Of a stretch of 36,008 bases of DNA, positions 7,174 to 9,076 are shown piece after piece. The notes under the pieces are model-generated. The model ran no database searches. It worked only from the letters and a program-made list of their open reading frames with translations, and had not been told where the DNA came from. The stretch lies in the UHGV virus genome UHGV-0138922; one strand, given 5' to 3'. Made by a program: the position numbers and the translations under genes. Positions within the stretch are counted from its first letter, which is position 1, and every line of letters begins with the position of its first letter. Origin of the DNA: a virus.

Positions 7174-7527
7174 TCAGCCATTCCATCGAGATTTTTTCGA
7201 CCTGCTATCAATATGCGTAAAGGTTTTATATTTGCCTAAGCCGTATTGAGTAGGATATTTCCCATCAAGATAAGCATGGACAATATCAGGGGAGACACCC
7301 TTGATCACAATGTCAGCCGCACGGCCTCGAACGTGATAGCTGTTGGTTGCACCGCCTACATTCTTGTTATGAGTCGGACAACGGTTCCCACTGTTAATAA
7401 TTACTGGTTTCCCGAAGTGCTCTCGTACATCCTCAAGAATTACCAGTAATTCAGCGTCGATTGTATCATAATCACATTTTCCGCATTTACATTTAAATTC
7501 CTTGCGAGAAAAATGTTTGCTTAACAT
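7174..7527 (-). CDS. Peptidase M15-family (zinc D,D/L,D-peptidase), candidate endolysin
   Basis: SRKEF...CKCGKC...NSGNRCP...SYHVRGRAADI...HID motif pattern typical of Peptidase_M15_3; GGGGGT ribosome-binding site. Confidence 0.7.
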   Translation of the reverse strand: MLSKHFSRKEFKCKCGKCDYDTIDAELLVILEDVREHFGKPVIINSGNRCPTHNKNVGGATNSYHVRGRAADIVIKGVSPDIVHAYLDGKYPTQYGLGKYKTFTHIDSRSKKSRWNG

Positions 7528-7536
7528 ATTACCCCC

Positions 7537-7884
7537 TTAGATCATTTCGAAGATATAACCAATAAAGCGCATACCCTTGATATAATAAGGAGCAGTGCCT
7601 ACACACACCGCGCGTGCATCACCCAGACAGTTAAAGCTATAAGGATTAACTACATCGACTTCTTGCCCTACACGAAAACGATATTTAGGACGTTTAGCCA
7701 ATGTAGCGACACAAAACACGGTCCCTTTTTCATGATCGCGGATACATTCTTTATATTGTTTATGTTTAACTCTCTTCGCCTCAAAATCATGTGTCATGGA
7801 TTCTGGGCTAATGCCATTAATAAAAATACCGGAAAGCTGGTCGACCGGATAAGTAGGAAATTCAGTGAAAATATTTTTAGCCAT
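7537..7884 (-). CDS. Hypothetical protein (115 aa)
   Basis: ORF in the operon, tightly spaced to the peptidase gene. Confidence 0.5.
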   Translation of the reverse strand: MAKNIFTEFPTYPVDQLSGIFINGISPESMTHDFEAKRVKHKQYKECIRDHEKGTVFCVATLAKRPKYRFRVGQEVDVVNPYSFNCLGDARAVCVGTAPYYIKGMRFIGYIFEMI

Positions 7885-7922
7885 GTTATACCCCCATAAG
7901 ATTCTATGAGGGTATTTATGGA

Positions 7923-8606
7923 TTAAACGTATCTCATGCGCGATTTAATGTGCTTATTAATGTTCTTAAGCATCATTTCCTCGTTGCTTTCCCACGATCC
8001 TAGCGTCGAATAACGAGTAGAAATTTTATCCGACTTAACGGCAACAATTCGCTTACTCTGTTTCTGGATGCGTTTCTCTAAGCGACGTTTTGCCACCGAC
8101 GATCCATTCTTAGCGCGTTTGGTTCGGGATTTCTTAGGCTTGTACTTCTTCATGATAAAAGTCCCTTCCTGGTTCTCTACCTTGATGAAGTTGCCATTTT
8201 CGATGTTACGCATCATCTTACCGCCTTTGATGGCCTTAATGTTCCCGTGGGAGTCTAAGACCTTACCGTTGGCGATTGGCACTAGCTTATTGATTTTGCC
8301 ACCATCGAAATAGTGTTTCAGATAGTCATCCTGACTGCCGATCTTCTTGTCCTTATCCCTTGCGCCCTTGATGAAGATTTGGTGTCTGGTCCCTGATCGG
8401 TTCTTATAGTTGGTATTACCTACAGCTTGTTGAGTCCAGCGAGTAGGTCTATCAACATTCTTGTTTATCTTCTTCTGGAGTGCTCTGGAAGCAAAGATCG
8501 CCCCTTCCCCTATCGCCCTTTCGAATGTATCGGTTGCCTTTTCAGACCATTGCCTCAACGCTTTCTTAGTCCTTAGAGCGTTTCGTTTATTGGTACTGGT
8601 TGCCAT
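7923..8606 (-). CDS. Highly basic Lys/Arg-rich protein (227 aa), unknown function
   Basis: ORF with start directly after the stop of the upstream 56-aa ORF; composition read from translation. Confidence 0.55.
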   Translation of the reverse strand: MATSTNKRNALRTKKALRQWSEKATDTFERAIGEGAIFASRALQKKINKNVDRPTRWTQQAVGNTNYKNRSGTRHQIFIKGARDKDKKIGSQDDYLKHYFDGGKINKLVPIANGKVLDSHGNIKAIKGGKMMRNIENGNFIKVENQEGTFIMKKYKPKKSRTKRAKNGSSVAKRRLEKRIQKQSKRIVAVKSDKISTRYSTLGSWESNEEMMLKNINKHIKSRMRYV

Positions 8607-8607
8607 G

Positions 8608-8778
8608 TTAGCCCCCTAATAACGAAAAGACCCCCGCCAGTGTCCTTAGCAATTGTTCATCCACGGTCATAGCCGGGAGTTCAAGCCCAAAGGACGTTAG
8701 CAGAGGTCTAATTGCTACGTTATAAGTGAGGGCGACAATCAAGAGATAACCAAAATATTTCTTAAGTTTATTCTTCAT
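8608..8778 (-). CDS. Unannotated 56-aa membrane protein (MKNKLKKYFGYLLIVALTYNVAIRPLL...), holin-like candidate
   Basis: AAGGGGTG ribosome-binding site upstream of ATG; hydrophobic helix; stop 2 nt before the next ATG; absent from the ORF track because <60 aa. Confidence 0.45.
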   Translation of the reverse strand: MKNKLKKYFGYLLIVALTYNVAIRPLLTSFGLELPAMTVDEQLLRTLAGVFSLLGG

Positions 8779-8797
8779 ATATTCACCCCTTTTATTA

Positions 8798-9076
8798 TTA
8801 TTTTTGTTTGAGTATGTCTAGAACTTGGTCAAATTTAGCGTCCATCGCAACCACTTTCTTTTCTATACCGTGAAGGGTTTGTTCCATGCGATAAACTCTC
8901 TCGGCGATCTGGTCATGGTTACTTTGCATCGTCTCAAACTTCTGGTTTAACAATGCGTCGCTGGATTCTAATTTCGACAATCTATTTTCTGTGGCTAATT
9001 GATTTCGGTGAAGTCTCCATAATCCACCACAAATTAAGGCGATAACACCGATACCGCCATATATAATTTCAGTCAT
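8798..9076 (-). CDS. N-terminally membrane-anchored coiled-coil protein (92 aa)
   Basis: IIYGGIGVIALICGGLW hydrophobic helix then heptad-rich region. Confidence 0.55.
   Translation of the reverse strand: MTEIIYGGIGVIALICGGLWRLHRNQLATENRLSKLESSDALLNQKFETMQSNHDQIAERVYRMEQTLHGIEKKVVAMDAKFDQVLDILKQK

What the first reader, a model, noticed from the sequence alone, without database searches (positions are those of the whole stretch)
7174..9076. M15 peptidase with nearby small membrane proteins: possible lysis or post-fibre accessory cluster
Downstream of the J-like gene in the same transcript are a transmembrane + coiled-coil 92-aa protein, an unannotated 56-aa transmembrane protein with a strong ribosome-binding site, a 227-aa extremely basic protein, a 115-aa protein and a 117-aa M15 metallopeptidase. 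The peptidase plus small membrane proteins could be endolysin and holin, but the order and the intervening basic protein are atypical. No lipoprotein spanin is evident.
Basis: partly seen in the sequence, partly recalled or inferred. Interest (0 to 1): 0.4.

Follow-up and report, generated by a model that had tools for sequence, protein, structure and literature searches.

The report
Prophage endolysin module, unproven holin partners
The last five genes of the late operon of a little-studied E. coli prophage end in a genuine cell-wall-cutting enzyme (endolysin), preceded by two small membrane proteins that may or may not be its holin, a probable tail-completion protein and an orphan protein, with no spanin anywhere in the prophage.

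Summary
The five ORFs exist exactly as described, on the minus strand at 7174-9076. All have GGGG-type ribosome-binding sites and evolve under purifying selection (dN/dS 0.08-0.24). The window is a ~37-kb serine-recombinase prophage inserted in E. coli ycdX, found in 55 of 5426 complete E. coli genomes.

The block is conserved in order in E. coli, Salmonella, Providencia and metagenomic relatives.

- **Last gene (117 aa):** an M15A (PF08291) endolysin with an intact Zn site, 60-64% identical to SP6-like podophage endolysins. In relatives the same slot holds a T4-type lysozyme or an M15C peptidase, so it is the endolysin slot.
- **227-aa basic protein:** probably not a lysis protein. Its family falls in phrog_1924 ("minor tail protein") and its model best matches an HK97-gp10 tail-completion protein.
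- **115-aa protein:** remains an orphan.
- **92-aa and 56-aa proteins:** bitopic membrane proteins of no known family. They are plausible holin or holin-accessory factors, unproven.
- **Rival holin:** a variable slot next to the small terminase subunit gene (TerS) looks more like a classical holin.

No spanin exists anywhere in the prophage. A conserved terminator separates J from the block, so "same transcript" is not shown.

The parts
9183..12959 (-). J-like tail tip / central fibre gene (context; last canonical tail gene)
   Evidence: Ig_GpJ_C 4.4e-34, Phage_Tail_Tip 3.5e-19, phrog_2148 1.4e-82
9129..9164 (-). Intrinsic-terminator-like hairpin (16 bp stem, 4-nt loop) followed by UUUUUAU, between J and the 92-aa gene
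   Evidence: Terminator scan. MFE -25.4 kcal/mol, z -7.06. Present in all relatives, with 4 pairs showing compensatory change.
8798..9076 (-). p92: bitopic inner-membrane protein with an N-terminal Gly-rich TMD (about residues 4-21), an LW(K/R)(L/F)H juxtamembrane motif and a ~70-aa coiled coil. Charge distribution suggests N-out/C-in. Candidate holin or holin-accessory factor.
   Evidence: Hydropathy. DUF7201 coiled coil 4e-4. Generic coiled-coil PDB hits. Conserved in 8 relatives. dN/dS 0.10-0.15. Only faint holin/XhlA-type PHROG hits, E about 0.02, in one homologue.
8608..8778 (-). p56: small bitopic membrane protein with a basic N-terminus (MKNKLKKY), one TMD and a ~30-aa tail ending in a hydrophobic stretch; predicted N-in/C-out. 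Its stop lies 1 nt from the p227 start. Candidate holin/antiholin.
   Evidence: Weak but repeated phrog_2024 hits (unknown function), 2.6e-4 to 5e-3 in three members. Conserved, including a 99-aa fused form directly upstream of the p227 homologue in L062. dN/dS 0.08-0.23.
7923..8606 (-). p227: very basic (pI 10.7) soluble protein, a divergent member of phrog_1924 'minor tail protein' with an HK97-gp10-like tail-completion fold and a Lys/Arg-rich insertion (about residues 150-190)
7537..7884 (-). p115: conserved soluble protein, beta-rich in its C-terminal half, function unknown
7174..7527 (-). Endolysin: single-domain M15A zinc peptidase, no signal or TMD, last gene of the late operon
   Evidence: Peptidase_M15_3 1.1e-27, 96.7 bits against a cutoff of 23.2. 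phrog_894 endolysin 1.9e-45. 60-64% identity to SP6-like podophage endolysins. Motif S63xH65xxG68xA70xD72, F103xH105, R49 and D107 read against LysPM1. Slot replaced by Phage_lysozyme in L036 and Peptidase_M15_4 in L059.
7127..7151 (.). Bidirectional terminator-like hairpin between the endolysin gene and the convergent uvsW.1 gene
   Evidence: Terminator scan hits on both strands; sequence
35674..35958 (-). R94: 94-aa protein with three hydrophobic segments and a short basic C-terminus, immediately downstream of TerS (which lies just outside the window). Rival holin candidate.
   Evidence: Hydropathy. TerS identified in L027. In relatives the slot is occupied either by R94-type proteins or by a 56-59-aa 1-TMD plus 57-aa 2-TMD pair. 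No family hit.

Best explanation
The region is the terminal module of the late operon of a temperate siphophage. It is bounded by a terminator after the J-like gene and by a bidirectional terminator after its last gene.

**Endolysin (shown by homology and by replacement in relatives).** The last gene encodes the phage's endolysin, a soluble 117-aa Zn-dependent M15A peptidase. It has no export signal, so it needs a hole-forming holin to reach the murein.

**p92 and p56 (inferred).** These two small bitopic inner-membrane proteins have opposite predicted topologies. They are the conserved membrane partners that gate endolysin release. They could be a two-component holin, a holin/antiholin pair, or a holin-accessory factor like Lcc6 of Shewanella phage LambdaSo.

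**p227 (inferred from family and fold).** It is not a lysis protein. It is a divergent HK97-gp10-like tail-completion or 'minor tail' protein. Its polycationic insertion could contact the DNA end at the top of the tail. It would fill the gpZ-type role that I could not identify in the canonical head-tail gene block.

**p115.** A conserved soluble partner of unknown role.

**Outer membrane.** No canonical spanin is involved, because none is encoded.
For: **Endolysin**
- PF08291 at 1e-27 and phrog_894 'endolysin' at 2e-45.
- 60-64% identity to endolysins of SP6-like podophages. In Proteus phage BigMira that homologue lies in a cassette with small holins and an embedded Rz/Rz1 pair.
- LysPM1 of Proteus phage Homer is a 116-aa single-domain Peptidase_M15_3 endolysin of the same architecture and motifs. 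It is experimentally lytic and Zn-dependent (PMC13461873). I did not align the two directly. The triad, SxHxxGxAxD and FxH are present here.
- No hydrophobic segment.
- The same position holds PF00959 lysozyme in L036 and PF13539 M15_4 in L059, while the four upstream genes are kept.
- No other muralytic domain turned up in the prophage ORFs scanned.

**p92 and p56**
- Each has a single TMD.
- Both are under strong purifying selection.
- They are kept with three different soluble endolysin types.
- In L062 a p56-like protein is the only membrane protein seen near a soluble GH24 lysozyme.
- Precedent: Lcc6, an N-terminal TMD plus cytoplasmic tail, encoded at the prophage end and required at the holin level.
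- Faint holin and XhlA-type PHROG hits for a p92 homologue.

**p227:**

**No gp10/gpZ-like gene detected in the canonical head-tail block:**
Against: - p92 and p56 match no known holin family.
- p56 lacks the charged C-terminus typical of holins.
- Two non-membrane genes sit between them and the endolysin.
- A variable membrane-protein slot next to TerS has the look of classical holin allele replacement, with 3-TMD versus 2-TMD occupants.
- In RcCronus and L062 the p227 homologue lies upstream of TerS rather than after J.
- Topologies are inferred only from hydropathy and charge.
Confidence: 0.5

Rival explanations
1. The true holin is the variable small membrane protein (or proteins) just downstream of TerS: R94 in this window. 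p92 and p56 are not lysis proteins. They are prophage-encoded envelope proteins with another role, such as superinfection exclusion or blocking DNA entry, as with other post-tail-fibre membrane genes (cor, llp, HK97 gp15; from my own knowledge).
For: R94 has three hydrophobic segments, an uncharged N-terminus and a short basic C-terminus (…FKRTK), like lambda S105 (the comparison with S105 is from memory). In relatives the same slot holds either a diverged R94 or a non-homologous pair of 56-59 aa (1 TMD) and 57 aa (2 TMD, …CCKSDTK). Nearly every family member has one or the other. That is the pattern known for holin allele replacement in lambdoid phages. A terminator before p92 would suit a separately regulated unit.
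Against: R94 and its alternatives hit no holin family. They lie at the prophage end next to attR, a typical moron position. They are ~28 kb from the endolysin. L062 has no membrane gene after TerS. No sigma-70-like promoter was found between the terminator and p92. p56 is packed against the late gene p227 with a 1-nt spacer, which argues for late co-expression.
Confidence: 0.3
2. The whole block is a virion or entry module. p92, p56, p227 and p115 are tail-tip or ejection proteins, and the M15 peptidase is a virion-associated murein hydrolase used during infection rather than for lysis.
Against: The peptidase is a bare 117-aa catalytic domain with no attachment domain. It is 60-64% identical to endolysins that lie in holin/spanin cassettes. 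Its slot is filled by ordinary soluble endolysins of other families in relatives. Without it the prophage would have no endolysin at all.
Confidence: 0.07
3. p227 and/or p115 are lysis components that replace the missing spanin. For example, the polycationic segment of p227 disrupts the outer membrane after murein degradation, as a disruptin-like function.
For: No spanin is encoded. p227 and p115 are always between the membrane proteins and the endolysin. p227 carries a very cationic segment. About 15% of phages of Gram-negative hosts lack spanins, and phiKT uses a cationic peptide instead (abstract of bioRxiv 10.1101/515445).
Against: p227 has family and fold links to tail-completion proteins. 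In RcCronus its homologue has a canonical holin and endolysin elsewhere. p227 has no export signal. The cationic insertion is absent or much shorter in many homologues.
Confidence: 0.08

Closest known systems
M15A single-domain phage endolysins (PF08291 Peptidase_M15_3): LysPM1 of Proteus phage Homer, and the endolysins of SP6-like Autographiviridae (PM85/PM93, Pm5460, BigMira, K1-ULIP33, UAB_Phi78)
   Same: Same size (116-117 aa), same domain, and 60-64% identity to the SP6-like podophage endolysins. I did not align LysPM1 itself. Same Zn triad and the SxHxxGxAxD and FxH motifs. No signal sequence.
   Different: It is encoded in a temperate siphophage at the very end of the tail operon. It is not flanked by recognisable holin and Rz/Rz1 genes as in BigMira.
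Canonical lambda-type lysis cassette S-R-Rz/Rz1 (holin, endolysin, two-component spanin)
   Same: A soluble endolysin that must depend on membrane permeabilisation. Small membrane proteins encoded in the same late transcription unit.
   Different: No lipoprotein o-spanin or u-spanin anywhere. The candidate holins are separated from the endolysin by two unrelated genes. They belong to no holin family.
Lcc6 of Shewanella prophage LambdaSo (bioRxiv 10.1101/2024.01.23.576932)
   Same: Like p92, a small protein with an N-terminal TMD (aa 5-22) and a predicted cytoplasmic tail. It is encoded in a cluster of small ORFs at the prophage end near the recombination genes, away from the classical cassette. 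It is required for lysis at the holin level.
   Different: LambdaSo uses a pinholin, a SAR endolysin and nested spanins. This prophage has a soluble endolysin and no spanin.
HK97 gp10-family tail completion proteins (80alpha/SaPI1 neck, PDB 9mu2 chain P) and phrog_1924 'minor tail protein' (Rhodobacter phage RcCronus gp44)
   Different: p227 is about twice the size of the solved protein and carries a Lys/Arg-rich insertion. It is encoded after J, not between connector and tube genes. Presence in the virion is untested.
PBSX/SPbeta-type xhlA-xhlB-xlyA lysis modules (from my own knowledge)
   Same: A small membrane protein with a coiled coil (XhlA), plus a small holin, encoded after the tail genes and before the lysin. 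A p92 homologue gives a faint hit to the 'hemolysin' (XhlA-type) PHROG (E 0.025).
   Different: XhlA has the TMD at the C-terminus; p92 has it at the N-terminus. The hit is not significant. The host is Gram-negative.

Membership tests
Peptidase M15A / Peptidase_M15_3 phage endolysin | Pfam PF08291 match above the gathering threshold over the full domain | tested here: met
   96.7 bits against a cutoff of 23.2; residues 4-107 cover profile positions 1-108 of 108
Peptidase M15A / Peptidase_M15_3 phage endolysin | Zn-binding H, D, H within SxHxxGxAxD and (W/F)xH, plus the substrate-binding Arg | tested here: met
   S63-x-H65-x-x-G68-x-A70-x-D72, F103-x-H105, R49 and D107, read from the translation against the residues listed for LysPM1. 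Alignment to 1LBU across the motif.
Peptidase M15A / Peptidase_M15_3 phage endolysin | Occupies the phage's endolysin position | tested here: met
   The same slot holds Phage_lysozyme (L036) or Peptidase_M15_4 (L059) in relatives with the upstream genes conserved. No other muralytic domain was found in the prophage ORFs scanned.
Peptidase M15A / Peptidase_M15_3 phage endolysin | Muralytic activity | not testable with these tools
   Needs a zymogram or turbidity assay
Holin | Small protein with at least one TMD, encoded with the endolysin in the late unit | tested here: met
   p92 and p56 each have one hydrophobic segment. They share a terminator-bounded unit with the endolysin.
Holin | Charged hydrophilic C-terminal domain | tested here: inconclusive
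   p92 has one: a 70-aa charged coiled coil. p56 ends in the hydrophobic …GVFSLLGG.
Holin | Membership of a described holin family (Pfam, PHROG, NCBIfam) | tested here: not met
   No holin family for p92, p56 or R94. Only E 0.024 to phrog_1296 for one p92 homologue.
Holin | Lethal, endolysin-releasing membrane lesion on expression | not testable with these tools
   Needs inducible expression or lambda S-null complementation
Two-component spanin (Rz/Rz1) or unimolecular spanin | o-spanin or u-spanin: a small ORF with a lipoprotein signal and lipobox Cys (embedded, overlapped or separate) | tested here: not met
   Six-frame lipobox scans, strict and relaxed, of the whole window and the right-end extension found no credible candidate
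Two-component spanin (Rz/Rz1) or unimolecular spanin | i-spanin: N-in/C-out bitopic protein with a periplasmic coiled coil | tested here: inconclusive
   p92 has a TMD plus coiled coil. Its N-terminal flank is acidic or neutral and its C-flank basic in all homologues, which suggests N-out/C-in. No topology predictor was available.
HK97 gp10-like tail completion / phrog_1924 minor tail protein (for p227) | Sequence membership of the family | tested here: met
   The query alone is weak (E 0.0019). However, 9 of 15 profile-linked homologues hit phrog_1924, best 2.4e-33, and RcCronus gp44 scores 2.8e-57. hhalign 96%.
HK97 gp10-like tail completion / phrog_1924 minor tail protein (for p227) | gp10-type fold | tested here: inconclusive
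HK97 gp10-like tail completion / phrog_1924 minor tail protein (for p227) | Presence in virions at the tail-head interface | not testable with these tools
   Needs virion mass spectrometry or cryo-EM
Disruptin (phiKT gp28-type cationic lysis peptide) | Small, highly cationic amphipathic peptide without a TMD | tested here: not met
   p56 has a net charge of only +3 and a hydrophobic TMD. Sequence comparison was not possible because the gp28 sequence was not at hand.

The most novel reading that the evidence does not exclude
This prophage family lyses E. coli without any spanin. It uses an undescribed membrane system: p92 plus p56 as a new two-component holin family. p115 and/or the polycationic p227 would take part in envelope disruption, that is, a new solution to the outer-membrane step in an easily tractable E. 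coli temperate phage.
Probability: 0.1. Interest if true: 0.65.

Novelty: new variant of a known kind. Interest (0 to 1): 0.35.

Why it matters
The endolysin itself is ordinary. Three things are worth noting:

- **An uncharacterised prophage family.** It occurs in about 1% of complete E. coli genomes, and also in Salmonella and Providencia. The INPHARED phage collection holds no close relative at the DNA level. Only the uvsW and tail-fibre segments match it, and those match Krischvirus phages.
- **No recognisable holin family and no spanin, in a genetically tractable host.** The proteins that must provide membrane permeabilisation, and possibly outer-membrane disruption, are therefore unknown. 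They are confined to a short list: p92, p56, R94 and p115.
- **A swappable endolysin slot.** Three non-orthologous enzymes sit behind a fixed four-gene block. This is a clean natural experiment showing which genes are endolysin-independent partners.

If p92/p56 prove to be a holin or an Lcc6-like accessory, that adds a new lysis protein family. If not, they are a conserved pair of late membrane proteins of unknown role.

Tried and rejected
- **p227 against phage genomes.** tblastn found nothing. The word-indexed protein search gave only 6 clusters. The exhaustive profile search gave only 12 representatives.
- **Related-loci scans.** The GTDB genome scan with a narrower alignment found no locus.
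- **p115.**
  - No Pfam, PHROG or NCBIfam hit.
  - The PDB profile search found only a chance hit.
  - There was no similarity to RcCronus gp20 or gp21, or to the L062 132-aa protein.
- **p92.** Its homologues are confined to this prophage family. tblastn of p92, of its L036 homologue and of the L062 p56-like protein against phages gave nothing usable. PDB profile hits are generic coiled coils.
- **A shared late-promoter motif** (TTGCC…TATAWAA) upstream of p92 was looked for elsewhere in the window and not found. No sigma-70-like promoter lies between the terminator and p92.
- **L113/L81 as a spanin pair: rejected.** These left-end genes are a TMD plus coiled coil protein and a signal-peptide protein. 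L81 has no lipobox Cys, and the pair lies upstream of the recombinase on the other strand.
- **Rfam** found nothing in the window.
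Full report
**1. What the window is**

The left end of the window carries the C-terminal part of E. coli ycdX (50-562, minus strand). A complete genome with the same prophage (L027) shows the N-terminal part of ycdX about 1.4 kb beyond the right end. The window is therefore almost all of a ~37-kb prophage inserted in ycdX by a large serine recombinase (1675-3369; Pfam families listed).

The finding's 2.1-kb cluster region (window 7100-9200) is found at >=80% coverage in 52 of 5426 complete E. coli genomes, with 55 matching at all. 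In other strains the prophage sits in codB or hicB. IMG/VR holds about two dozen ~35-kb copies. Diverged versions occur in Salmonella, Providencia and metagenomes.

At the DNA level the phage collection matches only two segments: uvsW/uvsW.1 and part of a tail-fibre gene. Both match T4-like Krischvirus phages.

The minus strand from 29655 to 7174 is one long late block:
- large terminase (TerL)
- a head-tail joining protein
- portal
- a protease-capsid fusion
- an FII-like protein and one more small protein
- two tail-tube paralogues that flank a gp37-like fibre
- chaperones
- tape measure
- distal tail protein
- hub
- DUF6950
- the 1258-aa J-like protein

The five genes of the finding follow J.

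**2.

The ORFs are at the stated coordinates. Each has a GGGG or GGGGG Shine-Dalgarno sequence 5-8 nt upstream.

| Protein | Property | Source |
|---|---|---|
| p92 | One N-terminal hydrophobic segment | |
| p56 | One hydrophobic segment after a basic N-terminus | |
| p227 | pI 10.7, 56 Lys+Arg | |
| p115, peptidase | No hydrophobic segment | |

Against relatives from Providencia (L028), a diverged E. coli lineage (L029) and Salmonella (L034, L035), dN/dS is 0.08-0.24 for all five genes wherever synonymous sites are not saturated. In the saturated comparisons pN stays far below pS. Even the 56-aa ORF is therefore a real gene, and RefSeq annotates it.

One point of the description is not shown: that the genes share J's transcript. 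Between J's stop and the p92 start lies a 16-bp hairpin followed by UUUUUAU. It has dG -25.4 kcal/mol and z -7.1 against shuffles. It is present in every relative, with compensatory changes at four pairs. The most distant relative, L036, has a different hairpin-plus-T-run at the same place.

A bidirectional terminator follows the last gene. The five genes are thus a terminator-bounded unit, reached either by read-through or antitermination or from an unrecognised promoter. No sigma-70-like promoter was found.

**3. The last gene is the endolysin**

- It matches Peptidase_M15_3 across the whole domain (1e-27) and PHROG 894 'endolysin' (2e-45).
- Its closest relatives in phage genomes, at 60-64% identity over the full length, are the endolysins of SP6-like podophages of Proteus, Klebsiella, Citrobacter, Pectobacterium and Salmonella.
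- In Proteus phage BigMira that homologue is followed by two tiny membrane proteins and an Rz gene with an embedded lipoprotein Rz1, a textbook cassette.
- LysPM1 is a 116-aa single-domain Peptidase_M15_3 endolysin of the same architecture. It has been shown to be lytic and Zn-dependent. Its key residues (Zn triad in SxHxxGxAxD and FxH, the substrate Arg, a nearby Asp) were listed (PMC13461873). I did not align LysPM1 with this protein directly. All of those residues are present here: S63/H65/G68/A70/D72, F103/H105, R49 and D107.
- The protein has no signal or SAR segment, so it needs a holin that makes large holes.

The strongest argument comes from relatives that keep the four upstream genes but carry a different enzyme in the last position. 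L036 has a T4-type lysozyme (PF00959, 4e-12). L059 and L060 have an M15C peptidase (PF13539). Three non-orthologous soluble murein hydrolases in one slot identify it as the endolysin slot. No other muralytic domain was detected in the prophage ORFs scanned.

**4. The basic 227-aa protein is probably a virion protein**

The family is very small: 6 clusters in the 5.8-billion-sequence index, and 12 representatives in the exhaustive profile search. Its more distant members connect it to known families:
- Nine of fifteen hit PHROG 1924 'minor tail protein', with a best E-value of 2.4e-33.
- That bridging member also touches PHROG 27 'tail completion or Neck1' at 5.5e-3.
- The family profile aligns to gp44 of Rhodobacter phage RcCronus, a core member of PHROG 1924, with 96% hhalign probability.

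I could not identify a gp10/gpZ-like gene in the prophage's canonical head-tail region, so the role is vacant.

In RcCronus and in the metagenomic contig L062, the homologue lies just upstream of TerS. On the excised circular form of this prophage that is the same relative position, apart from the inserted integration module.

The evidence is moderate, not strong. The 'minor tail' label has no experimental basis that I could find, and the fold score is modest. The Lys/Arg-rich stretch (about residues 150-190) is an insertion that many homologues lack or have in shorter form. I suggest it contacts DNA at the top of the tail. That is inference.

**5. The 115-aa protein is an orphan**

**6. The two membrane proteins**

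*p92.* It has a Gly-rich TMD, an invariant Trp and His just after it, and a ~70-aa coiled coil. In all homologues the N-terminal flank is acidic or neutral and the C-flank basic. This favours N-out/C-in, with the coiled coil in the cytoplasm. That argues against an i-spanin, but it is only a charge-rule inference.

*p56.* It has a strongly basic N-terminus, one TMD and a ~30-aa tail (N-in/C-out). Its stop codon lies 1 nt from the p227 start. In L062 a p56-like sequence forms the C-terminal half of a 99-aa protein directly upstream of the p227 homologue.

*Family searches.* Neither protein belongs to a described holin family. p56-type proteins repeatedly but weakly hit PHROG 2024, of unknown function. 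One p92 homologue gives faint hits to a holin PHROG and an XhlA-type PHROG, at E about 0.02.

*For a lysis role:*
- They are late membrane proteins in the endolysin's unit.
- They are retained with three different soluble endolysins.
- They have a precedent in Lcc6 of LambdaSo, a 65-aa protein with an N-terminal TMD and a cytoplasmic tail. It is encoded at the prophage end and required for lysis at the holin level.

*Against a lysis role:*
- The slot downstream of TerS carries either a 94-aa three-TMD protein with a short basic C-terminus (R94, 35674-35958) or, in other strains, a non-homologous pair of one- and two-TMD proteins.
- That pattern of non-homologous replacement is what holin genes typically show.
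- I cannot decide between the two candidates with these tools.

**7. No spanin**

Strict and relaxed six-frame searches for ORFs with a lipoprotein signal found nothing credible. They covered the window, including frames embedded in the five genes, and the right-end extension. The left-end pair L113/L81 has an i-spanin-like member but no lipoprotein partner, and it lies upstream of the recombinase. The prophage therefore belongs to the spanin-less minority of phages of Gram-negative hosts, about 15% according to the abstract of bioRxiv 10.1101/515445.

**8. Verdict**

- The module does contain the phage's endolysin, and it may contain its holin.
- The 'atypical intervening basic protein' is best read as a tail-completion-type structural gene.
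- The holin identity is contested by a second locus.
- The endolysin is a new member of a known family.
- The arrangement is a variant of the known lysis-module theme: two orphan membrane proteins, a structural gene, an orphan protein and a swappable endolysin, with no spanin.

I put confidence at about 0.9 for the endolysin, 0.55 for p227 as a virion or tail-completion protein, and 0.45 for p92/p56 acting in lysis.

Noticed in passing
window 5332-7128 (+); L035 11204-11611; L029 9643-9798: A temperate siphophage prophage carries T4-type uvsW and uvsW.1. The last ~300 bp are 95-96% identical in DNA to Krischvirus (RB49-like) phages, and the rest ~75%. Relatives also carry uvsY or a fragment of it. 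This suggests recent exchange between lytic T4-like phages and this prophage family.
   Followed up: partly
window 18018-22753 (-): A 1092-aa side-fibre gene is ~75-80% identical in DNA to part of RB49 gp37. It sits between two tail-tube paralogues (277 aa and 158 aa, both phrog_158), an unusual place for a fibre gene.
   Followed up: no
just right of window (L027 12464-13021) and window 27748-29655: The Nu1-like small terminase gene lies next to attR. It is ~6 kb from the large terminase gene, with oppositely oriented regulatory genes in between. After excision it would face the attP junction, so its expression might depend on excision.
   Followed up: no
window 35674-35958 (-); L033 9301-9698; L064-L086: The slot downstream of TerS holds alternative, non-homologous small membrane proteins in different strains: a 94-aa 3-TMD protein, or a 56-59-aa 1-TMD plus 57-aa 2-TMD pair.
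   Followed up: partly
window 32566-33790: About 1.2 kb of AT-rich (34% GC) sequence without a convincing ORF, between divergent regulatory genes. The only ORFs are an Arg-rich antiparallel pair that look non-coding. No Rfam family matches.
   Followed up: partly
window 1006-1624 (+): Two small envelope proteins lie upstream of the recombinase: a 113-aa N-in TMD plus coiled coil protein and an 81-aa protein with a cleavable-looking signal peptide. Pairs of similar size (105-106 aa + 81 aa) sit at the same place in the Providencia and Salmonella relatives; I did not compare the sequences. Relatives also carry OmpW/Lom-like outer-membrane protein genes there.
   Followed up: no
L036 1739-2203; L062 872-1315: An Endonuclease VII gene (PF02945, 1.5e-11) is inserted between the p92-like and p56-like genes in L036, and a similar Cys/His-motif protein lies upstream of the p56-like gene in L062. 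This may be a homing-type insertion.
   Followed up: no
window 3442-5341: The region between the recombinase and uvsW is variable. Here it holds 428-aa and 189-aa proteins with only faint CapR/MUG113 Pfam hits. Strain 39EVA has other genes plus IS1 there, and the minimal relatives L036 and L059 have nothing. This is a likely accessory or defence cargo site.
   Followed up: no
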